Source: a virus
Length of the DNA: 64,000 nucleotides
Strand: one strand, 5' to 3'
IMG/VR virus record: IMGVR_UViG_3300049434_000014
Location: 64,001 to 128,000 of that record
Below, piece after piece: positions 23,962 to 43,317 of this stretch. The first letter of the stretch is position 1. The number at the start of each line of letters is the position of its first letter. Position numbers and translations under genes: made by a program. The notes under the pieces were generated by a model. It searched no databases and was not told the DNA's origin. It saw nothing but the letters and a program-made list of their open reading frames with translations.

Positions 23962-24079
23962 CGACAAGTCAGTTCTTTACGCTTCGAGCCTTCCTGACAA
24001 GTCCAATCATGTCTTTTTCAGTTCGACTCGACTATTCTTGTCCATTCACCTCGCCTCGAGGCGTTTGACTTTTTCGTCC
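23962..24079 (+). repeat. Pentamer-periodic GAC-delimited array A (about 3-4 units), putative guide-RNA array
   Basis: cgac aagtc agttc tttac gcttc gagcc ttcc tgac aagtc caatc atgtc ... gac tattc ttgtc cattc acctc gcctc gaggc. Confidence 0.8.
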
Positions 24080-27311: not shown

Positions 27312-28219
27312 AATGGCTAGGGGTAGACGTCCCGTTCCGGAGGGCTTCGTTCGGATACTAGATCGTCGTAGCTCCGGTGCGGCGGGTGCGCACAAGGGTA
27401 GGACTGTGACGAGAAGTGCTGAGAGAAGCTCAGCTATTCGATCGAGCAGGGAGAATTAATATGTGTAAGTCGATTACTGTCGGCGAGCTTTTTGCGACCG
27501 ATAATCGGACTTTGACGGAGAAGATGGACGATCATTCGAAGCAAGATAATTTCGAGAGTGCTTTGACTGGTGTTCAGTATCAGCTTCGTCAGGCTCGGAT
27601 CGCTATGCTGGCTGCGGGAATGAAGATGCAGGATACTGATCGCCCGGAGATTGAGGTTGACGATTTCAGGTTGTACGACACTGCGGTGGAGGCAATTCAG
27701 AATCTTCAGGCTCGTATTCGTGACATTCTTGATGATTTGGATCCTAACGCTCCCATCCCGTCTGAGCGGCAGCTCCGCACGGATCAGGTCTAGTCTTCCT
27801 ACGTCGTGTTCAGAGAGGTAGTTATGCATCCGAATTCAGCATTTGCTTGGGATGATACTTCTCATCCTGCTCTTGCAGCCAAGGCGCGCGAGGCTCAGTT
27901 GGAGAAATTAGATACTCTGATGTATGTGCAGAAGAAGCTGATTGAGTCTCAGCGGGCACTGCTTGATGCTTTGTCGTCTCTGGTTGATACCAAGGTTGAG
28001 TTGTCTGCTGCTAGGAAGAAAGCGGCCAGTGAGACTCAGGGTTTCTTGACGGATTTGCAGCTGGCAACGCTGGAAGCATTCGCTTTGATTCAGCAGGGAT
28101 CGGTTTAGCGGGTACGACCAGTCGTCTTCGGACAGGGCATAGTAGAGCCTGAACAGACAGAATAAACTAGATATGGGGAGCACCGAAGAGTGGTTGTGAC
28201 TGGTCATGTCCACTCTCGG

Positions 28220-28673
28220 TGACTCGCTACGTTACACTGCAGATCGACTACTCAATTCTGTTCAGGCCCGTTCGATTCATTTGACAACCCGGCACAGGCC
28301 CTCTCGCATCCATGCGACAATGCGAGTCTTGTCTCCCCCTGGCCCATGCCGACTGTCCGTCTCGCCTCCGTATCCCATCCTTTCCGTTCTGTGCCGACGA
28401 GCCAGCTCGATCCGGGTCTCTCCCACCCACCGACTAGTCTCTGCGGATCCTCCCGGGTCAGGTGACTCTGCCGATCTAGTCCCAGCGCATCATCTCGTGT
28501 CCGACTATCCGTATCCGTGCTTGTCGTTTCCAATCGACCAGTCAGTCCCGGTCAGTTCGTGCCTTGTTCCGACAGATCGCTGCTGTTCGTTTCCCGTCAG
28601 TGCGACGGACCGAGACTGTTCGCCTCCAATCAGTTCGACTACTCGACACAAGTCACCCCAAGGCCGACGAACC
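28220..28673 (+). repeat. Pentamer-periodic GAC-delimited array B (about 13 units), putative guide-RNA array
   Basis: e.g. gac tctgc cgatc tagtc ccagc gcatc atctc gtgtc c|gac tatcc gtatc cgtgc ttgtc gtttc caatc|gac ... agatc gctgc tgttc gtttc ccgtc agtgc|gac. Confidence 0.9.
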
Positions 28674-29857: not shown

Positions 29858-30361
29858 TGACTACACTACTCCGATCCTTTCATGTCGTTGGCGAATCGTT
29901 CCCGTCCCGACTATTCGCCGCATGTCCCTTCGTGTCTTGCCAAGTCGACTATTCGTTTCGATCCCGGCCATTTCGTTTTGACTATTCGCATCGGATCCAG
30001 CTCCTATCGATTCGACTGATCTTGTCGACTACGCAAGTCAGTTCCGTTCTTTGCATTGCGACTTGTCGAGCCTGTCCGTGTCCGCGCGTATCGACTACCC
30101 GATCCAGTTCCGTCCTTTCCCGCTCTTTCCGACTACGCTCGTCTCATCCGGGCATGTCATCTCGACTACTCGATTCTTTCTCGTCGCTGCGGCTCTGTTC
30201 GACTACCCGGTTCGATACGGGACATCCCTGTCCGTTCTGACTACCCGTCTCCGTTCGCTTCTAGCCCAGTCCGTCTCGACAACCCATGTCGCGGCACTGC
30301 TCTTCTTTCCGTGACGACAGGCCAGTTCCAGTCTGTTCGTCTCTGTACGACATCACACATC
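29858..30361 (+). repeat. Pentamer-periodic GAC-delimited array C (about 15 units), putative guide-RNA array
   Basis: e.g. gac tacgc aagtc agttc cgttc tttgc attgc|gac ttgtc gagcc tgtcc gtgtc cgcgc gtatc|gac taccc gatcc agttc cgtcc tttcc cgctc tttcc|gac; boundary consensus CGACTA. Confidence 0.92.
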
Positions 30362-31464: not shown

Positions 31465-31535
31465 GGCTTCATAGACTAATGGCAGGTCACTAGCCTCTCA
31501 AGCTAGGAGTACGGGTTCGACCCCCGTTGGAGCTA
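31465..31535 (+). tRNA. tRNA-Glu (CTC)
   Basis: GGCTTCA/TGGAGCT acceptor; ctagc-CTCTCAA-gctag anticodon arm; GGTTCGA T-loop. Confidence 0.85.
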
Positions 31536-31547
31536 CGTTTGTATTAA

Positions 31548-31617
31548 CGTTCCGTGGTGTAGGGATAGCACGCCGGTCACGGGACCGGTAGTCCACGTTT
31601 AACTCGTGGCGGAACGA
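31548..31617 (+). tRNA. tRNA-like gene with abnormal anticodon loop (6 or 8 nt; identity undetermined)
   Basis: CGTTCCG/CGGAACG acceptor, D arm, ccgg-tcacggga-ccgg, T arm ccacg-tttaact-cgtgg. Confidence 0.6.
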
Positions 31618-31664
31618 CGCACGGCCTAGGATCGCCTCTGCTTCGGGCATGCGCCTAGGTCTCT

Positions 31665-31738
31665 CGGGATGTAGGGAAGCCAGGTATCCCACCTGTTTTG
31701 GGTACAGGAAGCCGCAGGTTCGAATCCTGCCGTCCCGA
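31665..31738 (+). tRNA. tRNA-Pro (TGG)
   Basis: CGGGATG acceptor; cctgt-TTTGGGT-acagg; GGTTCGAATCC. Confidence 0.9.
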
Positions 31739-31740
31739 CT

Positions 31741-31816
31741 GGATGGATGTAGCTCAATGATAGAGCCCTTGGATTAACGTCTAAGGAGACGTGGGTTTGA
31801 TTCCCGCCACCATCCT
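31741..31816 (+). tRNA. tRNA-like gene with abnormal anticodon loop (cttgg-attaacgt-ctaag) and bulged acceptor stem
   Basis: TAGCTCAATGATAGAGC D arm; GGGTTTGATTCCC T arm. Confidence 0.6.
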
Positions 31817-31820
31817 TCAT

Positions 31821-31895
31821 GGTGAATGTAGCTCAAATGGCAGAGCGCCTGATTGTGGGTCAGGTCGTTGCGGGTTCGATTCCCGTCGTTCACCC
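31821..31895 (+). tRNA. tRNA-His (GTG)
   Basis: Encoded G-1; cctga-TTGTGGG-tcagg; GGTTCGATTCC. Confidence 0.9.
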
Positions 31896-31978
31896 CGAGA
31901 GGGACGGAGTCCAAAGCACATATGGTACCTGTTGCTAGGACTTAAACGACAATGTTATGTGTGTCCGTCCTTCTCCTA

Positions 31979-32050
31979 TCCTCGTTAGCTCAAAGGCAGA
32001 GCGTGCGATTGTTAATCGCAGGGTTGTTGGTTCAAGTCCAGCACGGGGAG
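31979..32050 (+). tRNA. tRNA-Asn (GTT)
   Basis: TCCTCGT/ACGGGGA acceptor; tgcga-TTGTTAA-tcgca. Confidence 0.9.
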
Positions 32051-32061
32051 CGTTTGTTTAT

Positions 32062-32132
32062 GGGTGTGACAGGATTGTGACAGTGGAGCCCGCTGAGCGG
32101 CACTGTTGAGGGTTCGAGTCCCTCCACTTCCA
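32062..32132 (+). ncRNA. tRNA-like small RNA with intact T arm but non-canonical remainder
   Basis: gaggg-TTCGAGT-ccctc T arm; acagtg/cactgt stem enclosing a ccgc-tga-gcgg hairpin. Confidence 0.45.
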
Positions 32133-32137
32133 CGAGA

Positions 32138-32490
32138 TGGGCAGTCGTTGTCGCTTGCTTCTTTAGCTACGGTAATCACCCCGATGGAGCGAGTGACCCT
32201 TCACGCGAGGTCGGTTGGAGGCTGACAACCTGACGACAATTGGTGGGCTTGTCACTCACCTACCTATCTCTGCTCGAACCACTTTGTTGGCGGGTTCGCT
32301 ACCCGTACGGAGTGCCGGTTTGATCCAGATAGGCTCTAAGCCGAGGTGTGGGTGCGACCCCGCTAGCCCTCGGTGCCCCGAGGATCCCTTGCCAGAGAGG
32401 AACCGGATACGGATCTGGTGTTCGAGTAGTCGAGATGGACAGGGTCTGTGTGAATAACGCAGCTTCAACGACACTGTGGTGTGCCTGTCC
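32138..32490 (+). ncRNA. Candidate large structured ncRNA (about 350 nt) within the tRNA cluster (GOLLD-like?)
   Basis: No credible ORF; 5' gtcgttg pairs with 3' caacgac; many internal stems; T-loop-like gggtgcgacccc; sits between tRNA genes. Confidence 0.5.
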
Positions 32491-32498
32491 TTCTCCAA

Positions 32499-32569
32499 GG
32501 TGGAATGACCGAGCGGCTAGGTAGCGGTCTGCAAAACCGCGCACGCGGGTTCGATTCCCGCTTCCGCCT
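32499..32569 (+). tRNA. tRNA-Cys (GCA)
   Basis: GGTGGAA/TTCCGCC acceptor; gcggt-CTGCAAA-accgc. Confidence 0.9.
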
Positions 32570-32587
32570 CGTTGGGTAGGATATGTC

Positions 32588-32983
32588 ATGACTGAAACAC
32601 TGGTAACGGCGCTTCTGAGGAACAAGCCAGGGAAGTGGGCGCACGTCCTTCACGAGGACTCGGTAGCTCCTAACATTCCCTCCCATCATCTGATGGATCT
32701 TGCGTGTGACGTGAATCTGGGCAATGATGAGTGGGCTCCTGCGGGTGCGTTTTCGGCAGTGATTCGGGATGCTTCGGATCTGTATGTTCGATTCAATTCA
32801 GATAAACCTGATGTCACTGAAGTTGTGGTGTCGTACCGTGCGTCGTTGAAGTACGGTAATTGCTTTGATTGCGGCCTTCCGGGTGCGCAGTATCTGTTGG
32901 TCGACGTGGGTGTGATGAACTGTCCGCTGTGTGCGGCTGAGGCTGCGGTAGCGGGCGCTCAGGTGACTAGGTTGGAGCGTTAG
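32588..32983 (+). CDS. Hypothetical protein with C-terminal Zn finger
   Basis: CFDC...CPLC; GGGTAGGA upstream. Confidence 0.6.
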   Translation: MTETLVTALLRNKPGKWAHVLHEDSVAPNIPSHHLMDLACDVNLGNDEWAPAGAFSAVIRDASDLYVRFNSDKPDVTEVVVSYRASLKYGNCFDCGLPGAQYLLVDVGVMNCPLCAAEAAVAGAQVTRLER

Positions 32984-32992
32984 TTTGTTCGT

Positions 32993-33065
32993 GGGTCGTT
33001 AGTTTAACTGGTAAAACAGGAGCCTCCAAAACTCCACGATGTGGGTTCGATTCCTGCACGGCCCG
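32993..33065 (+). tRNA. tRNA-Trp (CCA)
   Basis: GGGTCGT/ACGGCCC acceptor; ggagc-CTCCAAA-actcc; GGTTCGATTCC. Confidence 0.85.
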
Positions 33066-33534
33066 CTTATGAATGGGTAGGATGTGACATGTGGCAACGT
33101 GAGGATATGGCGAGGTTCCTTATTTGGCTTGACGATCAGGGTTTGCTTAATCCTCCCGTTGAGATCGAGATTGATGAGATCCTCGATTTTTATGAGGATT
33201 ATACAGGCGTTTTTACCTCAAGGAGTAGAGATGGCTGAGTCTCAGATTTTCGAAGAGCACACTGTTCGATACCCCGAGTGCGATAAGCTGCACCGTGTAT
33301 CTGGCGATGTCTCGACGCTGCATGAGTTTCTGGAGTGGCTGGCTGAGAATGGCCTGCAGGTGTGCAGCCTTGAGGAGACTGGGAAGTTTGACTGTGATGG
33401 TCCGGTCGAGCATTACTTCCCAATCCGCGAGCAGCGAGAAGCTTTGGTGCAGCGGTTCTTTTCGATTGATCCAGCCAAGCTGGAGAGCGAGCGCAGGGCT
33501 ATGCTTGCTGCACTGCAGAGTTGATTGAAGACAT

Positions 33535-33616
33535 TACCCCGTCGTCTATTTTGGCAGGACGCTGTGCGGTGGTCGCTCCCCGTGCGGAGGTGCACGTTCG
33601 ACTCGTGCCGGGGTAG
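33535..33616 (+). tRNA. tRNA-like gene (Gln-like body) with extended anticodon arm and about 10-nt loop
   Basis: TACCCCG/CGGGGTA acceptor, TGGCAGGAC D arm, gcacg-TTCGACT-cgtgc T arm; anticodon arm ctgtgcgg-tggtcgctcc-ccgtgcgg. Confidence 0.6.
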
Positions 33617-33731
33617 CTGGAGGATAGATGTTAGCTAACGTTGTTGGTACGTTACTTGGGTTGATGCTTTTTCTGTTGGTGATCGTGTCACTTGTGATGC
33701 TAGTTCTGTCGTTTGCTCGTGATTGATCCCT

Positions 33732-33804
33732 GCACCGGTAGCTCAGGGGATAGAGTGTCTGATTACGGATCAGAATGTCGCAGGTTCGATTCCTGCCCGG
33801 TGCG
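33732..33804 (+). tRNA. tRNA-Arg (ACG)
   Basis: GCACCGG/CCGGTGC acceptor; tctga-TTACGGA-tcaga. Confidence 0.92.
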
Positions 33805-33828
33805 CTCCCTAAGTTGTGGAGGCAAGTC

Positions 33829-34929
33829 TTGACTGTTCGGGAGATTTTCTTGGCGGGGACTTATCCCTGTAGGGATAGGGAGGAGTCTCAGAGTTGGGCG
33901 TTGAGTGCGTTTTCTCCTAACATTCGTCGCATTGGTGATGGCGAGACTGGTGATCGGTCTAATTGGATTGTGGGGCTGAAGGATCGGTTGAGTCGCAGCC
34001 CGGATCTCATTCTTGAGCGGGATGGTCAGTGGGTTGACTATTACGATTCCCCTCGTTTCCGGCCTACGAGTGGTTTTGTCGACCCGGCTGGTCTCGATCT
34101 CGGGTATGCCGAAAATGCGATCGATGCTCACGATGCGCTGCAGCGTTTGCTCGCGCAGCGTCGGGCTGATCCGATTCCTTACATGGGCCTTGACAATATT
34201 GATCTTCAGGTAGGCATTCCTGGCCCTGCTGATGTGGCTGAGTTTTATCTGGCGGGGCTGCCTTCCTTTAAGGATCTGCTGGGCTGGTTGCGGGGCTTCA
34301 GAGCGTTCCTGCGCCACGTTCATGCGTTCCGGGCTGCGACGGCTAGGGAGATCTCACGGATCGTCTCAGAGGTCTCTCCGAGCCCGGTGTTCTCGATTGA
34401 GATTCCCTTCGAGACCGTGCTCGCAGTCCGCTTCGCGGGCATGCCTTCGTTGGTGCGTAAGTGGTTGTATCGCAAGATCTCAGATGAGATCAACAAGTTG
34501 GTTATCTGTACCCCGTTGGGTACGAGGTTTGGTCTGCATTTGTGCACGGGTGATTTGGAGGGCCTTCCGTTGGCACGGCCTAAGCTTGTAGATCCGGTCG
34601 CTGAGCTTGCCGCTGCGTTGATCGCTGCCTGGCCGGATGGTTATCTCTTGGAGTACGTTCACATTCCGTTGTGTGATGGGCAGGCGCCTCCGCATCCTCA
34701 AGAAGAGTTCTACGCGTCATTGGATATGCTTAAGGATGTGAAGCCTGAGATCTTCGCTGGTATCGTGCATCCTTCTGCTACGCTCCCGCAACAGAAGTAC
34801 ACGCTTCGTGTCGTTGAAGAGAGGATTGGCAAGCCGGTCGGCGTCGCAATGTGGTGCGGGTGCGGACGTATGGATCCTGCTTTGCGAGATAAGGTCGCAG
34901 AGCGTCATAGGGATCTAAGCACTGCGTGA
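33829..34929 (+). CDS. UROD/MetE-like TIM-barrel protein (cobalamin-independent methionine synthase catalytic-domain-like)
   Basis: DGETGDRSNWI, HLCTGD (HxC Zn ligands), C-terminal CGCGR; start moved to TTG 33829 (GGAGG RBS) because the longer ORF overlaps tRNA-Arg. Confidence 0.65.
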   Translation: MTVREIFLAGTYPCRDREESQSWALSAFSPNIRRIGDGETGDRSNWIVGLKDRLSRSPDLILERDGQWVDYYDSPRFRPTSGFVDPAGLDLGYAENAIDAHDALQRLLAQRRADPIPYMGLDNIDLQVGIPGPADVAEFYLAGLPSFKDLLGWLRGFRAFLRHVHAFRAATAREISRIVSEVSPSPVFSIEIPFETVLAVRFAGMPSLVRKWLYRKISDEINKLVICTPLGTRFGLHLCTGDLEGLPLARPKLVDPVAELAAALIAAWPDGYLLEYVHIPLCDGQAPPHPQEEFYASLDMLKDVKPEIFAGIVHPSATLPQQKYTLRVVEERIGKPVGVAMWCGCGRMDPALRDKVAERHRDLSTA

Positions 34930-35060
34930 TGTACTCGCATACTCTGGAGAGTTGAGCTAGGTTTGCTTTGGGGAATGATCGCCCCTCCCCACCAATGGTC
35001 TCGTGGCCTGGATGGCTGAATCCCCCCCTCCCGTCCGAGGTGACTACGAGACACTCACCT

Positions 35061-35091
35061 ACTGGCCCAGATCCCCGAGGTCTGGGCCAGT
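35061..35091 (+). terminator. Strong hairpin/terminator
   Basis: actggcccagatc...ggtctgggccagt. Confidence 0.7.
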
Positions 35092-35116
35092 GGTGTGTCT
35101 AGGGTAGAACTAGCAC

Positions 35117-35806
35117 ATGTCAGAAGCAGACCGGCTTGATCCGGCTAAACTTGTCGTGTGGTTAGACTTCGAGACGTCTGGCCTTGATACTGATTGCTCT
35201 ACGGTAATCGAGGCTGGCTGGTCGATTACTGATACCAGTCTTGTGCAGCGGACTCCGTTGCGCTCGAGGTTGTGTGGGTTTGTCCCCATTCCTGGCACGG
35301 CTCGTGCGGTTACGCCTGCGTCTCCTGATTGGATGGACGTAGATGGTTACGTAATCAATATGCATGAGAATTCAGGTCTTGCGGTGGAGTTTGAGAATAC
35401 TTCTCCACATCAGGTTCTAGGATCTTTCGCGCAGTTGGATCGTTTGATTCTCGATGATTTGTTTTCGGTCGGGTGGAATGGAGAGGCTAAGTTCGTCCTA
35501 GCCGGATCCGGGCTCGCTGCTTTTGACCGTAGGATCTTGATCGCTGGGCATTCTGTTTTACAGGATATGGCACATTACCGTGCTATGGATGTCTCGGTCG
35601 CCTACGAGACCGTTGGTTTGGCAGTTCCTAAGACTTCGGCGCAGATGCAGGCGATCTTCGATGCGTGGCCTGGCGTCGCGGGTGTGCAGCGAGCTGACGA
35701 TTCTTGGATCTTTCCTGCAGGTCTGGATCCTTTGCACCGGGCGGGCACGGATGTTGCTGCGTCGATCATGTTGTGTCGGGTGTTGAGGTCGAGAATTATG
35801 GCATGA
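35117..35806 (+). CDS. Oligoribonuclease-like DEDDh 3'-5' exonuclease
   Basis: VVWLDFETSGLD, MHENSGL, LAGS...FDRRIL, HYRAMDVS, HRA..D: the Orn motif set. Confidence 0.85.
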   Translation: MSEADRLDPAKLVVWLDFETSGLDTDCSTVIEAGWSITDTSLVQRTPLRSRLCGFVPIPGTARAVTPASPDWMDVDGYVINMHENSGLAVEFENTSPHQVLGSFAQLDRLILDDLFSVGWNGEAKFVLAGSGLAAFDRRILIAGHSVLQDMAHYRAMDVSVAYETVGLAVPKTSAQMQAIFDAWPGVAGVQRADDSWIFPAGLDPLHRAGTDVAASIMLCRVLRSRIMA

Positions 35807-36321
35807 GCCTTATTGGGTTTGAGAGTCCCTTTCCGGTTGCTGTATCTCAGACGGGTGATACGGAATGGGAGCTTACAGCTGCGATGACTTATCATGGCAG
35901 GTATCAAACGTTTACGGTTCCTGTAGGGCAGACTACGGATTTCGCCAGTGTTCCTGCTGTGCTTACGTGGTTGGTTCCTATCGAGACGGGTATCCCCGCT
36001 GCGGTGCTTCACGACTATCTGTGGCGGGTGAAGGTCCCTGCGAGCGAGTTGGAATACCGGGAGGCTGACGGTATTTTGCGTCAGGCTTTGGGCTCTCTGG
36101 GTGTGCCTGGGCCACGGCGCTGGCTGATGTGGGCGGCGGTGCGCTGGGGCTCTCTGACGCGTCCTGGGGGCCATCAGGGCTGGTTGCGTGATGCCCCGGC
36201 TGTGGTGGCTGTGACGTTGCTGGGGCTGCCCCTCGCGTTGCCTGCAGTGCTTCTGTTGCCGTCGACGGGTGTGCTCACTCTCGCGGATTGGATTTTCGGT
36301 AGGAGTAAACGTGGAGCCTAA
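35803..36321 (+). CDS. DUF1353 family protein
   Basis: TVPVGQTTDFASVP...AAVLHDYLW...READ..LRQAL...R.LMWAAVR. Confidence 0.85.
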   Translation: MSLIGFESPFPVAVSQTGDTEWELTAAMTYHGRYQTFTVPVGQTTDFASVPAVLTWLVPIETGIPAAVLHDYLWRVKVPASELEYREADGILRQALGSLGVPGPRRWLMWAAVRWGSLTRPGGHQGWLRDAPAVVAVTLLGLPLALPAVLLLPSTGVLTLADWIFGRSKRGA

Positions 36322-36600
36322 ATCTGATTCTTTGGTCGATCTGCTGCGTCAAACAGTGCAAAGAATTCCTGAGATGACGGAAGAGCAGAGAGACTGGCTT
36401 TACTCGATTGTCTGTGAATGTCATATTGCAGGGTTGCGGCGCGCTGGCGATCGTCTTCGTGCGGAGGTTATTGAGGTACAGCGGGAAAACACAAAGCTGT
36501 ACGCACGGATTGCTGAGTTGGAGGCCGAGTTGGCTAAGCATGCTGACGTCAGTTCAGCTCCAAGCTAGCTCCAACCTGAACCAAATTTGGGAGCACGAAG

Positions 36601-37284
36601 ATGCCTAACAATCCAAAGACTAAATACTTCTTTGATACTGAGTTCCTTGAGGATGGCAATACGATTGATCTGATCTCGATCGGTATTGTATGTGAGGATG
36701 GACGTAAGTATTACGCAGTCAATCGTGATGCTGACTGGGTTCGTATCCTTCAGCATGAGTTCTTAATGAAAGAAGTAGTTCCACATTTGCCTTTGTTACC
36801 TGAGTCAGAGTGGTTTAATAATGGTACGTATGCCACCATCCTTAATGAAGATGACCCTACGGTGAAGGCATATGCTCAGATTGCAGATGAGGTATACAAG
36901 TTCTTGTTAGATGATGGTCGCGGTACGAGTCGCAATAATCGTGAGTTGTGGGCGTGGTTTGCTTCTTATGATTTTGTTGCTTTGTGTCAGCTTTACGGAA
37001 CGATGATAGGACTACCTGATGGCATTCCTATGTTCATTCGTGACCTGAAGCAGGAGCATGAGCGGTTGGGTAGTCCCTCACGGCCGTCTCAGGTTAAAGG
37101 GACTGCGCATAATGCATTGTTTGATGCTGAGTATGACTATCATCTCTTTAACTTCTTACGTCAGTACGAGGCTCGTCGGCTGTCTGAGATGTCTCAACAG
37201 GTTTTGTGTTGTTCGTTTGATGTCGGCGAGGCTCACGAGTTGTTAGATGCTGTGTCTGATTGGCGTCCGAATAAGAGGGCATGA
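36601..37284 (+). CDS. 3'-5' exoribonuclease, RNase AS (Rv2179c)-like
   Basis: YFFDTEFLEDGNTIDLISIGIVCEDGR.YYAV, ELWAWFASYD.V.LCQL.G.M, HNAL.DA. Confidence 0.88.
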   Translation: MPNNPKTKYFFDTEFLEDGNTIDLISIGIVCEDGRKYYAVNRDADWVRILQHEFLMKEVVPHLPLLPESEWFNNGTYATILNEDDPTVKAYAQIADEVYKFLLDDGRGTSRNNRELWAWFASYDFVALCQLYGTMIGLPDGIPMFIRDLKQEHERLGSPSRPSQVKGTAHNALFDAEYDYHLFNFLRQYEARRLSEMSQQVLCCSFDVGEAHELLDAVSDWRPNKRA

Positions 37285-37976
37285 TCTGCCTGGTCAATAA
37301 ATCGACTCTGCTCAAAGACGCCGATGTTCGGCTCATGGCGCGGGCGTGCGCTTCTCAGGTGAAGTTGCATCTGGCCTCGGCGTGGGGGTTGTCGCCGATT
37401 CCGGTTGTCTATCTTTCGAGCAAAGACGATGCCCCTCCAGGTGCGTGGGTGCTCACGGTGTTAGATGATTCTGATCAGGCAGATGCTTTGGGCTGGCACT
37501 CTGAGGATGACTCGGGTCTGTACTACGGACGGATCTTCGCTCGCCCTGTTTTCGACAATGGTGGTAACGCGCTCACCAAGAGTTTGTCTGTGGCCTCGGT
37601 GGGTTCTCACGAGGTGTGCGAGATTTTCTGCGATCCGGCTTGTAATCTCTACGCTGAGATGGATCAGCACACGGAGATTGCGGTGGAGGCTTGCGATCCG
37701 GTGGAATCTGATTCTTACGTGATCAAGGTTGACGGGATCTCGGTTACGGTCAGTAACTTTGTGACGCGTCGTTGGTTCGATCCGCTGGCTCAAGGTGGCC
37801 GCTTCGACTATCTGGGGAAGGTCAACGCTCCGTTTACGATGACTAAGGGTGGTTACGTCATCGTGAAGAAGGATGGTGTGATCTCTCAGCAGTTTGGTGA
37901 GAAGTACCCGGAGTGGAAGAAGGCGACGAAGCAGCATCGGCTGGCTCGCACCGCGCGGAGGTCTCTGCAGCGGTAG
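37281..37976 (+). CDS. Putative metalloprotease-like protein
   Basis: ALGWH, SHEVCE, EACDPVE, VSNFV. Confidence 0.55.
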   Translation: MICLVNKSTLLKDADVRLMARACASQVKLHLASAWGLSPIPVVYLSSKDDAPPGAWVLTVLDDSDQADALGWHSEDDSGLYYGRIFARPVFDNGGNALTKSLSVASVGSHEVCEIFCDPACNLYAEMDQHTEIAVEACDPVESDSYVIKVDGISVTVSNFVTRRWFDPLAQGGRFDYLGKVNAPFTMTKGGYVIVKKDGVISQQFGEKYPEWKKATKQHRLARTARRSLQR

Positions 37977-38582
37977 TACCTTGCATGGATTGTCCTGGTG
38001 CGCTGCCGTCTGACCCTGATGCTCTAAACGACTATCTTGATTCGTTGGTGAGCGCTAATCGTGTCTCGGCACAAGATGCTGACGCTGTGCGCCAGTTTCG
38101 ACGTTTTCTTGAGGCGGTCGCTCCCTATCGTCCCGGTCCGCTGCCGGTCTCTGTGATTCGTGAGTACCAGGGTTACCTTGGGGTCTCTGATGTTGAGCTG
38201 GCAGAGATCGAGCGGCAGCGTCGCACGGAGGGGTAGGACCAGACATGACTTCTCATACGCGTACCGTTTCTCAAATGAAGCTTTCGCACATTAAAGGTAT
38301 TCTCAGTACGATCCCTTCGTTTGTCTCTGAGGACTACCAAGGCATTAAGGTTGGTAGTCGTAGCTCTTTGTTCTCAGATCTTGAGCGCATCATGTGTATG
38401 CATATTCATTCTGATCTACATCCTATCTTCTGGATTGCAGTTGCTACGTGGTACTGTGATCAAGAACGTCTCTACTTGCCGGACGTGCCTGAGTGGACTC
38501 CGCTGGATTTGGCGACAGACTGTATCTTAGATGATTCGCATAACATGTCGTTTCCACACTTTGTGCTTTTGACGGAGGAGTG

Positions 38583-39245
38583 ATGACTTCCGTTGCTGAG
38601 GTATCTGATGCGGTTCGTGCAACGCGTCAGAGGCTGTCCGTCCGGGTGGGCGAAGCCCAGGTTTTAGCCAAGCGCGGCCAAGAGTTGGTTAATGAAGTCG
38701 CTGTGCTGTCCGACGAGCGGGCTACGGCTGATCGTGTGTCGGGTGTGCTCTCGAAGATCGGTTCAGAGCGTGACGCTGCCGCTCGGGCTCAGGTCGAGGG
38801 TCTGGTGACGTCGGGGCTGCAGGCAATCTTCGAGGAGAATCTGTCGTTTCATCTTGTGGAGAGTACGTCGAGACAAACTCCACAGATTGACTTCGTGGTG
38901 CGTACTCATTTGCCGGACAGCTCATCGTTCGAGACTGATGTAATGAATGCGCGCGGTGGCGGGCTTGCTGCAGTCGTGGGTTTGTTGTTGCGCGTTGTGC
39001 TCATCCTCTTGACAAGAGCGTCGGGGAAGAAAGCACCAGATGTATTAGTTCTTGACGAGACGCTCGCTCATCTGTCGCGTGAGTATCTTGATGCTGCGGG
39101 TCAGTTCCTTCGGACGCTGTGCGACTCCACGGGTTTGCAGCTGATCATTGTTACGCACCAGCAGGAGTTGGTTGAGTTCGCCGATGTGTCGTATCGTCTT
39201 CGTTTGGATGCAAACGGTAGAACCGTAGCAACCAAGGAGGCATGA
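38583..39245 (+). CDS. Rad50/SbcC-like ABC-ATPase, C-terminal half only
   Basis: Coiled coil, signature-like RGGG, Walker B VLVLDE, H-loop IIVTH; no Walker A. Confidence 0.8.
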   Translation: MTSVAEVSDAVRATRQRLSVRVGEAQVLAKRGQELVNEVAVLSDERATADRVSGVLSKIGSERDAAARAQVEGLVTSGLQAIFEENLSFHLVESTSRQTPQIDFVVRTHLPDSSSFETDVMNARGGGLAAVVGLLLRVVLILLTRASGKKAPDVLVLDETLAHLSREYLDAAGQFLRTLCDSTGLQLIIVTHQQELVEFADVSYRLRLDANGRTVATKEA

Positions 39246-39560: not shown

Positions 39561-40348
39561 CTAAGTGGAGGATGCTGTTTATGAGATCCCACATGGCTTT
39601 TCCTCGATTCCTGTCCTTTGGGTACTACTGTAGCAACGTGTCAAGGTGACTCGTTATCGAGGGGTGACATGATGAGTAGACAAGAAAAGTGGGAAGCACT
39701 AAGTAATATTCAGAAAGCGAAGCGTCAGGCCCTAGGCGCGGTATTCTCTGTTTTTGTGCTGGTGTTCCTGCCCTTCTGGGTGCCCCTGGACGGTATTTTC
39801 AAGATCATCTGCGCGGTGATCGTCGGCCTGTTGGGGCTAATACTGGCTTTCCAGGCTGGTGTGTACTCAAGTTCTACGGACGAGGAGACTAGATAGTGAC
39901 TGACTCTGCTGGTCCTTATTACGAGATCGTGGATGAAGACGATGCTGGTGTATCTGATTTGCCAGTGCAGGAGATTGTTTGGGTGGTCGACCCTGATGCC
40001 GACCCAATCGTCCCGTACGCGGGTATGGACCCTGACGAGCCAATCGTGAAGTCTGCCGATGATGGTCCTGTCGCGGGCAGTGCAGGGGATCTTCCGTGAG
40101 TACTGCTACAGTGTGTATTCCTGGTACGCGTTCTTATCGCGCGGGTGTGACTCGAGGTTACGAACGTGCGGAGCGCATGTTTTCCATGGAGGGCTGTGCT
40201 CGTATCCCTCATCGTTCTGACGTCCTGAGGGGTCTTCCCTTTTGGGTTGAGGGTCATGATGATATTGAGAAGTATCTTGACGGGTATGCGTTAGGATTTG
40301 CACGTCGAGTGTCCGGTCATTGGCCAAACGGTATGTTGAGGACTTTCA

Positions 40349-40912
40349 ATGAGTGAACCTGTGCTTGATACACGTGATTACAATGCTGAGATGAATGAGC
40401 TTATTTCAGAGAAGATTCCTGCTGATGGGGATTTCATTCCTTCGCTGGCTGCGTGGAGCATCGTCTCAGCTCTCACCGAGACTGATCCTGAGCTTCTCGA
40501 CGGTTGGCTGCGTTTGCACGCGAAGTCGTTTCTTACGGAGTTGATGCGTGCTCAGCTTCGTTCTCATCGTGCTCGGGTTCGGTCTAGTGCGAAGGCGACG
40601 GCGTTTTCGTCTGCTGCTAAGCGCTTTGAGAAAAACGGTGACCTCGCCGAGCTGGGCGGGTGGATGAAGATTCGGTATGTAGTCGATGATCAGAGTACGC
40701 AGCGTTGTCTTGGCGATATGGATCGTAATGATCTGAATTTCGTTGCTTCACGGTATAGTCGGACGGCTCAGACTCTGTTGCTCGAGGAGGCGTTTCATCG
40801 CGCGCTAGCATCGCGGGTGGGTAGTCTGAAGGTCAGTGAGGTTTTCACTGAGGAGCAGATTAGCGCGATGTATCGTAATCTGAGTGGCAATACGCATACT
40901 GCTACTGCCTGA
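40349..40912 (+). CDS. Hypothetical protein directly upstream of array E (candidate partner of the Cas7-like system)
   Basis: Its TGA stop is the first TGAC delimiter of array E. Confidence 0.75.
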   Translation: MSEPVLDTRDYNAEMNELISEKIPADGDFIPSLAAWSIVSALTETDPELLDGWLRLHAKSFLTELMRAQLRSHRARVRSSAKATAFSSAAKRFEKNGDLAELGGWMKIRYVVDDQSTQRCLGDMDRNDLNFVASRYSRTAQTLLLEEAFHRALASRVGSLKVSEVFTEEQISAMYRNLSGNTHTATA

Positions 40913-41242
40913 CTTACCAAGACCAGTCACGGCTCATCCGTTCGATACCGTTCCGACATGTCTAGCCTCATCCCGTCAAGTCTTGCCATTGCCGACACGT
41001 CTAAGCACGTCTATTCACGTCCGACATTCCAAGGCCAGTCGCGTCGCGTTGGGCCATATCGCTTCCTTTCCGACTACGCACTTCTGCCCATAACTATTCA
41101 CGGCGACTTCCCGTATCAGGCCAAGTCGAGCCGTTTCGACTACACACTTCTCGCCGCGCCTAGTCGGGACCGACTTCACAAGCCGGATCGTGACAGGTCA
41201 GTTCGAGACCGACTGGGCTATCCGAATCGTTTCTCATCCGAC
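40910..41242 (+). repeat. Pentamer-periodic GAC-delimited array E (9 units)
   Basis: tgac ttacc aagac cagtc acggc tcatc cgttc gatac cgttc|cgac atgtc tagcc tcatc ccgtc aagtc ttgcc attgc|cgac acgtc taagc acgtc tattc acgtc|cgac... Confidence 0.92.
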
Positions 41243-41659
41243 AATGTCAGGAGTGTCTAGTGACTATCTCTGCTCAAGAGATTCTTAACTTGCCGATGCA
41301 GTCTAACGATGCGCAGGCAGCTACAGTTGGAGAATACTTGGTTGCACTTGTTAGAGAAGTGTGGAGATTAAATGAGAATTTTAGCGGTAAGAGACCGTTT
41401 GGGAACAGTGGATGGCATTACGAGCTTTACGCACCGTTGGTGAGAGCAGGTTTAGTTGACGGGCTCACTAATGAGGATGGAGAGATTGAAGTTACTGATG
41501 GACGCAGGGCTGATGCGTTGATTGATTTGGCCATCTTGGGGCTCTGGAAGCCCAGCGCGGAGAGCACGCAATAGTCACGGATCGCAACCACCTCAGCTCC
41601 CATCCGTTATCTGGGTGCTGAGGTGGTTTTGCGTTGTCCCCTATTTTTGAGGAGAGACT

Positions 41660-42094
41660 GTGCTTGCTTACCGTAGGACGGTGCTCGCGGTGGTGAGTAC
41701 TGCGACGCTTGGTGTGTCTTCTCTGCTGGCCGCTCCTGCCTTCGCTGATGACCCATCGCTGCCTGGTGTGCCCAATCCCCCGTCGTGCACGAACCCGCTG
41801 CCGCTGCGGGGCAGTGAGGTCCCGATCTGTGTGACGGTCAATAACCCTCCCGACAATGAGGGTGGCGTGAAGGCTCGCGTTCGGGTCGGAGACGTCTTGT
41901 GTGTGAAGGTCGACGCTCTTACCGAGCGTAAGACTGCTGACGCTCGCGTGATTCTGCCGTGCCCGATTCACTATGTTCCTGTGCCAGTTCCGGTGGAGGT
42001 GACTCCCGAGCCTGCTCCTGTCGAGACTCCTGAGCCCGCTCCTGTTGCACAGGCTCCTGAGATTGTACAGGCTCATTTGCCTGTTACGAATTAA
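41660..42094 (+). CDS. Secreted Pro-rich protein
   Basis: Signal peptide ending AAPAFA; four Cys; PEPAPV repeats. Confidence 0.7.
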   Translation: MLAYRRTVLAVVSTATLGVSSLLAAPAFADDPSLPGVPNPPSCTNPLPLRGSEVPICVTVNNPPDNEGGVKARVRVGDVLCVKVDALTERKTADARVILPCPIHYVPVPVPVEVTPEPAPVETPEPAPVAQAPEIVQAHLPVTN

Positions 42095-42146: not shown

Positions 42147-42227
42147 CGCCTGGGTAGTACTCGGTATGGGATTCCGGTCTGTGGATACCCCATGTCTCGA
42201 TGAAAAATACATCCAGGAGGAATACTC

Positions 42228-42986
42228 GTGACGGTTTCTACTTCGGCTCCTGTCAGTGTGTTTGCAAAGTACCGTGATGTCACGTGGCCTTATAGGTATG
42301 AGGGCACTCTGCACATCGATACCATTGCTGGAGGCATTCCTTCTGACGAGAAGGTTGCTGAGGCATGGTTACGTACGAAGTTGGAGAACAAAGACGACCT
42401 CATTCGTGAGGCCGTTGCTGAGACGATGGCCGCTCGCGGTGTCGGTAAGGAAGAGGCGGCACAGATCGTCGCTTCGATGAAGCACTTCACTGGTTTTAAG
42501 CGTGACAGCAATGGGCTATACATCGAAGGTCGTCAGCTGAAAGCGGCGATCAAGGAAGCGGCGATGATTGCTGTCGCCGCTGAGCGGATTCCCCTGCGCG
42601 GGTGGGGTGTTACCTCGAAGTACCTTAAGGGTTTCGTCGCGGAACACATCATGGTTGTCGATGACATCTTGTACTTGAAGGTGGACGGCACTCCTGCAAA
42701 GGAAGCTACTGGAATCACTCAGCAGTTCGTTCACACCCAGTACGGTTCGGCTCCGCACTACAAGGAGTTCGTGTCCGGTGCTACCATTGATTTCACGGTG
42801 ATTACGGACTTCTTCTTCACCGAGGAGCATTGGATGCACATCTGGGCTACGGGTGAGCAGGAAGGGATCGGTGCCTCGCGCTCTGGCGGGTTCGGTCGCT
42901 ACGTGGTTACTCGGTGGAATTTGGTGACTTCCCCACCAAAGAAGAAGGCTCCTGCCAAGGAGAAGGAAGCGGCTGCAGTTAGGTAG
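42228..42986 (+). CDS. Stand-alone Cas7/RAMP-like RNA-binding protein
   Basis: RAMP-like layout: N-terminal strand YEGTLHIDTIAGG, GLYIEGRQLKAAIKEAA (IPGSSLKG-equivalent), E.V..ATIDFTV, terminal Gly-rich loop GIGASRSGGFGRY; immediately followed by array F. Confidence 0.8.
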   Translation: MTVSTSAPVSVFAKYRDVTWPYRYEGTLHIDTIAGGIPSDEKVAEAWLRTKLENKDDLIREAVAETMAARGVGKEEAAQIVASMKHFTGFKRDSNGLYIEGRQLKAAIKEAAMIAVAAERIPLRGWGVTSKYLKGFVAEHIMVVDDILYLKVDGTPAKEATGITQQFVHTQYGSAPHYKEFVSGATIDFTVITDFFFTEEHWMHIWATGEQEGIGASRSGGFGRYVVTRWNLVTSPPKKKAPAKEKEAAAVR

Positions 42987-43017: not shown

Positions 43018-43317
43018 GAGACAAGCCAAGCCGCATCCAGACGCGCCACCGCGCTTCGACTATTCGTGTCAGATCTATCCATCTCCTTCGACCAGCCGTG
43101 TCGCGATCATGTCGCTTCCTAGTCCTTTCGACCTGTCGCTACGTTGCGCTTCTTGGCATATCCACACCGACCATGCGCGCCGCGACCTTACAAATCCTCT
43201 CGCCCTGACGAGTCTCCACGCGGCTCTACAATACTCATCATTCTGACAAGTCTTCACGCGGCTCTACAATACTCATCATTCTGACTAGCCAAACCGGTAC
43301 ATACCATTTCGCACGAC
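43018..43317 (+). repeat. Pentamer-periodic GAC-delimited array F (8 units), directly downstream of the Cas7-like gene
   Basis: gac aagcc aagcc gcatc cagac gcgcc accgc gcttc|gac tattc gtgtc agatc tatcc atctc cttc|gac ... includes a duplicated 38-nt unit. Confidence 0.92.

What the first reader, a model, noticed from the sequence alone, without database searches (positions are those of the whole stretch)
40349..41242. Unknown 187-aa gene fused to array E: candidate second component
The TGA stop is the first TGAC delimiter of a very clean 9-unit array, 1 kb upstream of the Cas7-like gene. This gene-array layout mirrors the Cas7-like gene and array F. The protein is helical with no motif I recognise, so it could be a small subunit, effector or regulator (inference).
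Basis: inference. Interest (0 to 1): 0.7.

Follow-up and report, generated by a model that had tools for sequence, protein, structure and literature searches.

The report
VIPR accessory gene beside guide array
The 187-aa gene is real and is the constant partner of a lone Cas7-like (Vipr-type) protein and of five-base-periodic non-coding arrays in about 50 actinobacterial phages and prophages, so it is most likely the accessory gene of a divergent member of the VIPR RNA-guided silencing systems first described in 2026.

Summary
ORF 40349-40912 is a real gene. Its TGA plus the next C starts a 9-unit, C-rich, 5-nt-phased non-coding array (40908-41249), 986 nt upstream of a 252-aa protein with a Csm3/Cas7 fold.

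- 45 of 45 loci found through the Cas7-like protein (40% identity or more, enough upstream DNA) carry a 187-family gene on the same strand.
- 7 of 7 loci found through the 187-aa protein carry the array and the Cas7-like gene.
- The loci range from this 153-kb lytic phage to small Streptomyces prophages.
- The genes lying between the parts are not conserved.

The kind of system is already published as VIPR (bioRxiv 10.64898/2026.04.26.720920): a lone RAMP (Vipr), an accessory gene (vap) and pentamer-coded vrRNAs. This scan has also followed up similar phage loci before.

This clade differs in four ways:
- The fixed letters on the gene strand are C (NNNYC).
- Units are short (5n+3) and butt-joined at CGAC.
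- The G-reading loop residues are replaced.
- The accessory protein has no detectable known fold or family and no similarity to SUSP1 vap1.

Its biochemical role, the transcribed strand and the targets remain unknown.

The parts
40336..40340 (+). Shine-Dalgarno GAGGA of the 187-aa gene
   Evidence: Read directly from the sequence, 8 nt before the ATG at 40349.
40349..40912 (+). 187-aa gene (P0001): candidate VIPR accessory (vap-type) protein of unknown fold
   Evidence: ORF. The family has 638 representative clusters at E<=1e-3, all about 170-190 aa. No Pfam, PHROG or PDB sequence match. AlphaFold2 pLDDT 92, with no convincing fold match. Always linked to the Vipr-like gene and the arrays.
40908..41249 (+). 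Array E: 9 butt-joined units of NNNYC pentamers separated by YGAC phase slips. Unit starts: 40908, 40957, 40996, 41025, 41074, 41107, 41140, 41174, 41213. Candidate staggered vrRNA array.
   Evidence: Composition and lag-5 autocorrelation. HMM segmentation. Anchor-locked profile with C at +3, +8, +13 and on to +33.
42153..42160 (+). Phage promoter-like motif GGTAGTAC upstream of the Vipr-like gene
   Evidence: GGTAGKAY occurs 30 times on + and 2 times on - in the window, against 3.9 expected; genome-wide 69 on + and 5 on -.
42228..42986 (+). 252-aa Vipr-like lone RAMP (P0002)
   Evidence: AlphaFold2 model, pLDDT 73.7. Foldseek top hits are all Cas7 family: type VII Cas7 and Csm3, E about 1e-6, probability 1.00. 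VIA-align Z 11.8, rmsd 3.9, 163 residues aligned to Csm3 9g9f_D. C-terminal G-rich loop GIGASRSGGFG. Colinear hhalign alignment of 132 columns to SUSP1 Vipr, covering the GRQLKAAIKEA helix and the G-loop; pairwise E 0.032, weak.
43022..43313 (+). Array F: 7 units of the same grammar, starting about 35 nt after the Vipr-like stop codon
   Evidence: HMM segmentation. C autocorrelation at lag 5 is 0.32.
29861..30350 (+). Dispersed array of the same grammar (11 units); the most regular one
   Evidence: Spacings are 33 or 38 nt.
28200..28667 (+). Dispersed array of the same grammar (10 units)
23965..24066 (+). Short array of the same grammar (3 units)

Best explanation
The 187-aa protein is the accessory ('vap'-type) protein of a divergent VIPR system carried by this complete 153-kb phage.

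The system has three conserved parts:
- the 187-aa gene;
- arrays of pentamer-coded units, of which array E is the one that starts at the gene's stop codon;
- a lone Cas7-like Vipr protein (42228-42986).

Proposed mechanism, by analogy with published VIPR (inferred, not shown here). The arrays are transcribed, and I judge the gene strand more likely (about 65%). Vipr protomers bind one pentamer each. They hold the fixed letter(s), here C preceded by a pyrimidine, and expose the variable letters. The exposed letters pair in a gapped fashion with double-stranded DNA of competing phages or prophages and silence it. The CGAC 3-nt slip ends one filament and starts the next, which gives units of 5n+3 nt.

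Proposed role of the 187-aa protein (inferred). It acts with the Vipr-RNA filament and is needed for full silencing in vivo, as vap1 is in phage SUSP1. The likely contact surface is the conserved basic helix (residues 61-80; R71, R74, R78) and the beta-hairpin (R119).

Shown here: the gene, the array grammar, the Cas7 fold of the partner and the three-way linkage. Inferred: transcription, RNP formation, DNA silencing and the protein's biochemical role.
For: Linkage.
- Vipr-like side: all 45 loci with a Vipr-like gene (40% identity or more to P0002) and enough upstream DNA carry a 187-family gene on the same strand within 2.5 kb. Nearly all also have a C-rich, lag-5-phased block beside it.
- 187-aa side: 7 of 7 loci with enough downstream DNA have the phased block followed by a Vipr-like gene. 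These are L001, L002, L003, L005, L067, L068 and L070, and three of them come from distant members at about 32% identity.
- Backbones differ. L002 is a Streptomyces prophage in which the module follows the cro-like gene. The window is a large lytic-type phage.
- Genes lying between the array and the Vipr-like gene are not homologous between relatives.
- Permuted orders keep the three parts together: 187-Vipr-array, Vipr-187-array and array-187-Vipr. Microcystis phage Mae-JY09 is one such case.
- The first phased unit starts a median of about 20 nt from the 187 stop codon.
- The genome holds one copy of each gene and no Cas1, Cas6 or Pfam RAMP match.

Array grammar.
- The same anchor-locked grammar appears in 219 anchors of this genome and in 744 anchors of 33 high-GC loci.
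- Unit lengths peak at 28, 33, 38 and 43 nt.
- Between the relatives L001 and L005 the phased C is 92% conserved, against 61-72% at the other four positions.

Partner protein. It has a Csm3/Cas7 fold.

Published frame.
- VIPR loci consist of vipr, vap and pentamer vrRNAs. Six vap families and 'staggered' arrays are described.
- Deleting vap1 from SUSP1 lowers plaquing on satellite lysogens as much as deleting vipr.
- I confirmed the SUSP1 locus layout myself.

Changed fixed letter. The published G-reading G-loop residues are D-(W/Y)-R. They align to the invariant A-S-R in this clade.
Against: - No RNA data exist for this phage or its relatives, so transcription, processing and the strand are inferred.
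- On the opposite strand the arrays read GRNNN or GGgNN. That resembles the published NNNNG and NNNGG variants, so the RNA could be antisense to the genes.
- The 187-aa protein shows no similarity to SUSP1 vap1 (hhalign E 0.33).
- It has no recognisable HTH or winged-helix domain and is mildly acidic (median pI 6.0). This is not what one expects of a plain DNA binder.
- Units have only 5-9 pentamers, against the published 9-16.
- Linkage shows shared function. It does not show which function.
Confidence: 0.55

Rival explanations
1. The 187-aa protein belongs to the same system but acts on the array RNA rather than at the DNA target. Possible roles: it nucleates or caps Vipr filaments at the CGAC junctions, cuts the butt-joined precursor into 5n+3-nt units, or shields the long untranslated C-rich transcript (an ideal Rho loading site) so that transcription reaches the downstream genes.
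For: - In most loci the array starts at or within about 50 nt of the 187 stop codon, and in L050 and L052 the array follows the 187-aa gene rather than the Vipr-like gene.
- Units lack individual promoters and 3' tails, so some processing or boundary-setting activity is needed.
- The protein is not strongly basic overall but has one conserved basic helix.
- The arrays are C-rich and G-poor. Established knowledge of Rho utilisation sites says such RNA recruits Rho.
Against: - In SUSP1, vipr plus one vrRNA are enough for RNP formation and reporter silencing without vap1.
- Orders with the 187-aa gene abutting the Vipr-like gene and the array more than 1 kb away also occur: L045, L048, L057-L061.
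- No nuclease or RNA-binding fold was detected.
Confidence: 0.28
2. The 187-aa protein is a Cas11-like small subunit that lines the Vipr filament and stabilises the target strand.
For: It is small, mostly helical and encoded next to a Cas7-like backbone protein, which is the class 1 CRISPR layout.
Against: - No Cas11, Csm2 or Cmr5 match appears in Foldseek or VIA-align. The best Z is 5.5, over only a C-terminal helical hairpin. This is inconclusive rather than negative.
- In the published VIPR structures the Vipr protomer carries its own helical bundle that does the small-subunit job.
- The 252-aa protein here has a matching helical insert at residues 41-83.
Confidence: 0.08
3. The linkage is only synteny. 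The 187-aa gene would be an unrelated early phage gene, and the arrays would be DNA- or transcription-level signals (Rho-dependent terminators, protein-binding iterons) rather than guide RNAs.
For: - C-rich, G-poor untranslated tracts are classic Rho substrates.
- In the Streptomyces prophage L002 the module sits just after the cro-like gene, where lambdoid phages place a regulated terminator.
- No target was found for any unit.
Against: - Synteny survives across unrelated backbones, permuted gene orders and non-homologous intervening genes.
- A terminator does not need a C locked to every fifth base, 92% conserved against 61-72% for its neighbours, nor unit lengths quantised as 5n+3.
- The partner has a Cas7 fold, which binds RNA periodically.
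- The published VIPR work shows what such arrays do in related systems.
Confidence: 0.05

Closest known systems
VIPR systems (Viral Interference Programmable Repeat): Vipr + vap + vrRNA. bioRxiv 10.64898/2026.04.26.720920, 10.64898/2026.04.26.720927 and 10.64898/2026.10.15.759431. Type II example: Escherichia phage SUSP1, KT454805.2 27499-29511.
   Same: - Phage-encoded.
- One lone small RAMP with a G-rich loop and no other cas genes.
- One small accessory gene beside it.
- Long non-coding flanks made of pentamer repeats in which fixed letters alternate with hypervariable ones.
- Extra arrays placed away from the protein genes.
- Butt-joined units that fit the legend of the published 'staggered arrays' (fig. 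S18).
   Different: - On the gene strand the fixed letter is C preceded by Y (NNNYC, or NNyCC in high-GC relatives), not GGY. In SUSP1 the G-type repeats are on the gene strand.
- Units have 5-9 pentamers, against 9-16, and are joined by a 3-nt CGAC slip. They lack their own promoter and a 3' pseudoknot tail.
- The G-loop residues that read GG (D-W/Y-R) are A-S-R here.
- The accessory protein has no detectable similarity to SUSP1 vap1.
- Arrays total about 6.3 kb (133 units), about 4% of the genome.
- I could not check whether this clade, or this accessory family, is among the paper's seven types and vap1-6, because its data files are not held.
Non-canonical VIPR-like arrays found by a genomic language model (bioRxiv 10.64898/2026.10.21.760802, fig. 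S10)
   Same: Period-5 arrays with fixed letters other than GGY, next to a Vipr-like fold.
   Different: The motifs named there are GAC/NN, CAC/NN, WGT/NN and TGH/NN, with about 10 repeats. A single fixed C, or CC, with 5n+3 units is not named.
Class 1 CRISPR backbones (Csm3/Cmr4/Cas7 filaments on crRNA, with the Cas11 small subunit)
   Same: The Cas7 fold of the partner protein (Z 11.8 to Csm3). Periodic RNA binding. RNA lengths quantised by the protomer footprint. A small helical protein encoded nearby.
   Different: Period 5, not 6. No repeat-spacer CRISPR array. No Cas1, Cas2, Cas5, Cas6 or Cas10. The variable part carries a sequence constraint. The 187-aa protein shows no Cas11-like match.
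Type III toxin-antitoxin RNA arrays (ToxI-type 34-36-nt tandem repeats)
   Same: Tandem units of about 35 nt on a phage or plasmid, processed by a partner protein.
   Different: ToxI repeats are near-identical and structured. Here the units share only the phase and the CGAC junction, and the partner has a Cas7 fold rather than that of a ToxN-type nuclease.

Membership tests
VIPR system (locus level) | A lone RAMP (Vipr) with an RRM core, thumb and G-rich loop, and no other cas genes | tested here: met
   Model of P0002: Foldseek and VIA-align hits are all Cas7, Csm3 or type VII Cas7 (Z 11.8). G-loop GIGASRSGGFG. No Cas1, Cas6 or Pfam RAMP match in the complete genome, and only one Vipr-like gene.
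VIPR system (locus level) | Sequence homology of the RAMP to a published Vipr (SUSP1) | tested here: inconclusive
   hhalign gives a colinear 132-column alignment that pairs the G(R/E)Q/M..A.IK helix and the G-loop, but the pairwise E is only 0.032. A profile HMM hits the G-loop region weakly. The paper itself says Viprs share little sequence similarity.
VIPR system (locus level) | Flanking non-coding arrays of pentanucleotide repeats with fixed and hypervariable positions | tested here: met
   Lag-5 autocorrelation, anchor-locked profiles and 92% against 61-72% conservation.
VIPR system (locus level) | Fixed letters GGY (or the published variants NNNGG, YNNNG, NNNNG) on the transcribed strand | tested here: inconclusive
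   The gene strand reads NNNYC or NNyCC; the opposite strand reads GRNNN or GGgNN. Which strand is transcribed is unknown.
VIPR system (locus level) | Array RNAs are made and co-purify with Vipr | not testable with these tools
   No RNA run holding the sequence was listed.
VIPR system (locus level) | Gapped (1-nt-skip) recognition of DNA of competing elements | tested here: inconclusive
   150 sampled units tested under 7 gap rules against 1.47 Mb of related loci plus this genome scored no better than shuffled units. The database is far too small to be a fair test.
VIPR system (locus level) | Encoded by a phage or prophage | tested here: met
   G000 is a complete virus record with direct terminal repeats. 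It carries a clamp loader, an endolysin and a tRNA cluster. Relatives lie in prophages and IMG/VR contigs.
vap (vipr-accessory protein), defined by synteny | A small gene consistently encoded next to vipr and its arrays within a Vipr clade | tested here: met
   45 of 45 loci from the Vipr-like side and 7 of 7 from the 187-aa side.
vap1 of SUSP1 (type II VIPR) | Sequence similarity to SUSP1 vap1 (146 aa, KT454805.2 28031-28471, minus strand) | tested here: not met
   hhalign E 0.33 over 5 columns; HMM E 0.12.
vap1-6 as listed in the preprint | Identity with one of the six catalogued accessory families; predicted WH-like or HTH-like DNA-binding domain for types II, VI and VII | not testable with these tools
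   The preprint's data files and figures are not held. No HTH or WH family was detected by Pfam or by fold search, which is inconclusive.
Cas11 / small subunit | Helical-bundle fold like Csm2, Cmr5 or Cse2 | tested here: inconclusive
   No such chain appears among the matches. The best Z is 5.5, on a generic helical hairpin.

The most novel reading that the evidence does not exclude
This actinophage clade writes the VIPR code with C instead of G on the sense strand. The replaced G-loop residues (A-S-R for D-W/Y-R) would then mark a re-tuned base-reading pocket. The 187-aa family would be a seventh, uncatalogued accessory family with a new fold. It would set the boundaries of Vipr filaments at the CGAC slips of a long unprocessed precursor, or cut there. 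That would be a processing and assembly factor that the published VIPR types do not need.
Probability: 0.25. Interest if true: 0.7.

Novelty: new member of a known kind. Interest (0 to 1): 0.5.

Why it matters
VIPR is a months-old discovery, and its accessory proteins are the least understood part. Vap1 is required in natural SUSP1 infection, yet no mechanism is known.

This work links a large uncharacterised protein family to one VIPR clade. The family has at least 638 clusters at 50% identity, a confident predicted structure and no known fold. The linkage to the Vipr-like gene and the arrays is close to perfect. That gives the field a second, unrelated accessory family for comparison.

The clade also offers a natural test of how the fixed letters of the code are read, because the fixed letter and the G-loop residues change together.

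This phage spends about 4% of its genome on 133 units, so it is a rich source of natural guides once the pairing rule for this clade is known.

Tried and rejected
- CRISPR array: rejected. No repeat-spacer structure, units share only their phase, and there is no Cas1 or Cas6.
- Protein-coding reading of the gap (100-aa ORF 40958-41260, or a minus-strand gene): rejected. It has no Shine-Dalgarno, no 3-nt periodicity and the wrong AT skew for a minus-strand gene.
- tRNA or a known RNA family in the gap: none.
- Simple motif enrichment: YCCGACW is not enriched window-wide. The signal is local phase, not motif count. Global period-5 Fourier power is weak because the phase resets at every unit.
- Close DNA relatives among isolated phages: none. 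The 187-aa protein has no tblastn hit in 50,697 phage records. The Vipr-like protein hits only Microcystis phage Mae-JY09.
- The search for related loci returned nothing usable with P0002 alone or with the 187 alignment; the Vipr-like alignment worked.
- Fused or longer forms of the 187 family: none found, which is weak evidence.
- Fold of the 187-aa protein: Foldseek PDB found nothing at E<=0.001. VIA-align wide gave a best Z of 5.5 on a C-terminal helical hairpin only. The Atlas search gave no usable hit, and the atlas fold library was unavailable.
- Profile against PDB sequences: only E 0.13 to MatP. Pfam on 35 members gave scattered single hits.
- Target search: no excess over shuffled units under any of 7 gap rules. 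The database was small, so this says little.
- RNA evidence: no RNA holder listed; only small shares in soil-metagenome DNA runs, which I did not lay.
- The genes between array E and the Vipr-like gene (41260-41574 and 41660-42094) as further components: rejected, because they have no counterpart in relatives.

Full report
**What is there.**
The window is bases 64001-128000 of a complete 153,455-bp virus record with direct terminal repeats. It has 54% GC, and nearly all genes lie on the + strand. It carries a tRNA cluster, a clamp loader and an endolysin.

ORF 40349-40912 encodes 187 aa. It has a GAGGA ribosome-binding site, and its start overlaps the preceding gene's stop. Its TGA stop plus the next C forms the first TGAC of the 348-nt gap that follows.

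That gap is not ordinary spacer DNA:
- It has 35% C and 21% G, the reverse of the G-rich coding strand.
- C is positively autocorrelated at lags 5, 10 and 15 (0.37, 0.29, 0.18) and negatively at other lags. The flanking genes show no such signal.
- A phase-tracking HMM divides it into nine runs, with a YGAC at each break.

**The grammar.**
I aligned all 219 YGAC sites of this genome's arrays. C sits at +3, +8, +13, +18, +23, +28 and +33 (+3 is the C of the YGAC anchor itself; 86% at +8, falling to 51% at +33). T usually precedes it, and the previous unit's phase ends on the first C of CGAC. CGAC is therefore a 3-nt slip between runs of NNNYC pentamers, and units are 5n+3 nt long.

Across 806 units from 60-odd loci, lengths peak at 28, 33, 38 and 43 nt. 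The same anchor-locked phase appears in 744 anchors from 33 high-GC loci, where the pentamer reads NNyCC. Between two relatives whose genes are 72-80% identical, the phased C is 92% conserved and the other four positions 61-72%. Selection is thus acting on the phase itself.

This genome has seven such arrays with 133 units, about 6.3 kb. They include a 4.2-kb block of 79 units near the right end.

**The partner.**
The 252-aa protein at 42228-42986 has no Pfam or PHROG family. Its model matches only Cas7-family chains:
- Foldseek: E about 1e-6, probability 1.00, to type VII Cas7 and Csm3.
- VIA-align: Z 11.8, rmsd 3.9, 163 residues aligned to Csm3.

It ends in a canonical RAMP glycine-rich loop. 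Its family is large, with more than 900 hits, and well conserved across Streptomyces, Nocardiopsis and Actinomadura prophages.

The 187-aa protein has 638 representative relatives, all 170-190 aa.

- *From the Vipr-like side.* All 45 loci with 40% identity or more and enough upstream DNA carry a 187-family gene on the same strand. Almost all have a phased C-rich block next to it.
- *From the 187-aa side.* All 7 loci with enough downstream DNA have the block and then a Vipr-like gene. Three of them are distant members at about 32% identity.

The usual order is 187-aa gene, array, Vipr-like gene. The first unit starts a median of about 20 nt from the 187 stop codon. The permuted orders 187-Vipr-array, Vipr-187-array and array-187-Vipr also occur.

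In a Streptomyces prophage the three parts are contiguous, right after the cro-like gene. In this phage two extra genes sit between array E and the Vipr-like gene, and they have no counterparts in relatives. One cultured phage, Microcystis phage Mae-JY09, carries a divergent copy of the whole module.

The 187-aa gene is therefore a conserved component, not a neighbour by chance.

**What kind of system.**
A look-up of this scan's earlier notes pointed to the VIPR preprints. I read them. VIPR loci consist of a lone ancestral RAMP (Vipr), an accessory gene (vap, six families) and vrRNAs built of GGY/NN pentamers. Variants such as NNNGG and NNNNG, and 'staggered' arrays, are described.

Vipr protomers bind one pentamer each. 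They bury the fixed letters and expose the variable ones, which pair with double-stranded DNA while skipping every third base. This forms an R-loop triplex that represses transcription of competing phages and satellites. In SUSP1, deleting vap1 is as harmful as deleting vipr.

I located the SUSP1 locus and confirmed its layout. The present locus meets the locus-level features that can be tested here. Sequence similarity to SUSP1 Vipr is weak but colinear through the hallmark helix and the G-loop.

**How this clade differs.**
1. On the gene strand the fixed letter is C. In SUSP1 the G-type repeats lie on the gene strand.
2. Units are short and butt-joined, with no promoters or tails of their own.
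3. The published G-reading loop residues D-(W/Y)-R align to the invariant A-S-R here. This fits a changed fixed letter.
4. The accessory protein is unrelated to vap1 in sequence. It has a confident, mostly helical model with no convincing fold match and no Pfam or PDB family. It is mildly acidic, with one conserved basic helix.

**Which strand is transcribed is open.** I favour the gene strand at about 65%.

For the gene strand:
- Arrays abut a stop codon on one side and a ribosome-binding site on the other, which leaves no room for an antisense promoter.
- The phage's promoter-like motif is 69 to 5 in favour of the + strand.
- Hairpins follow some arrays in the + sense.
- The G-reading residues are lost.

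For the opposite strand: it reads GRNNN or GGgNN, which is close to the published variants.

**What the 187-aa protein does is inferred only.**
By analogy with vap1, I take it to be an accessory factor required for full VIPR activity. The main rival is an RNA-level role at the array, in processing, filament boundary-setting or protection from Rho. A Cas11-like role is less likely, because Vipr proteins carry their own helical bundle.

A target search in the small set of sequences available gave no signal. The complex predictor was unavailable. No RNA run was listed.

**Verdict.**
The kind of system has been known since 2026, and this scan has already followed up similar loci in other genomes. 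The added value is the tight three-way linkage, which defines a large accessory family, and the features of this C-type, short-unit clade.

Noticed in passing
genome 145415-149639 and 150287-150940 (17.4-22.9 kb beyond the window's end): A 4.2-kb array of 79 units and a 654-bp array of 14 units with the same grammar lie near the right end of the genome. The larger one is preceded by 150 nt of non-coding DNA holding TAGGAT-type promoter-like variants on the + strand. All seven arrays together make up about 4% of the genome.
   Followed up: partly
window-wide, e.g. 38232, 42153: The motif GGTAGKAY occurs 30 times on + and 2 times on - in the window (3.9 expected), and 69 to 5 genome-wide, mostly at gene junctions. 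It looks like a phage-specific promoter element.
   Followed up: partly
window 43205-43285: A 38-bp tandem duplication (2.1 copies, 95% identical) lies at the end of array F. Each copy carries a sigma-70-like CTGAC(A/G)-16-TACAAT site, just upstream of the clamp-loader gene (43327).
   Followed up: no
window 31465-33805: A cluster of 8-9 tRNA genes (Glu, Pro, His, Asn, Cys, Trp, Arg, plus one odd and one weak call).
   Followed up: no
L071 (PP395641.1, Microcystis phage Mae-JY09, 37174-38976): This is the only isolated phage in the collection with the module: a divergent 187-family gene abutting a Vipr-like gene, then a C-type array ending in a strong hairpin. The stretch I fetched (record 33716-38976) has 73% GC, which is odd for a Microcystis phage.
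   Followed up: partly
L001 11045-11100 and L005 (aligned region): A conserved non-phased stretch with a GGCGCATTGCGCC hairpin lies between the end of the array and the next gene's ribosome-binding site in two relatives. It could be a 3' end or processing signal for a + strand array transcript.
   Followed up: no
window 38580-39245: A 221-aa ATPase (phrog_15167, weak SMC_N match) lies in the same gene block upstream of the 187-aa gene. A 219-221-aa gene sits at a similar position in the relatives L001, L003 and L005; I did not test homology or any link to the module.
   Followed up: no
L003 12011-12581 and 13661-14531; L054 6171-8001; L048 6121-8261: Several relatives carry further phased arrays downstream of the Vipr-like gene and around the clamp-loader gene. 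Multiple dispersed arrays are therefore common in this clade.
   Followed up: no
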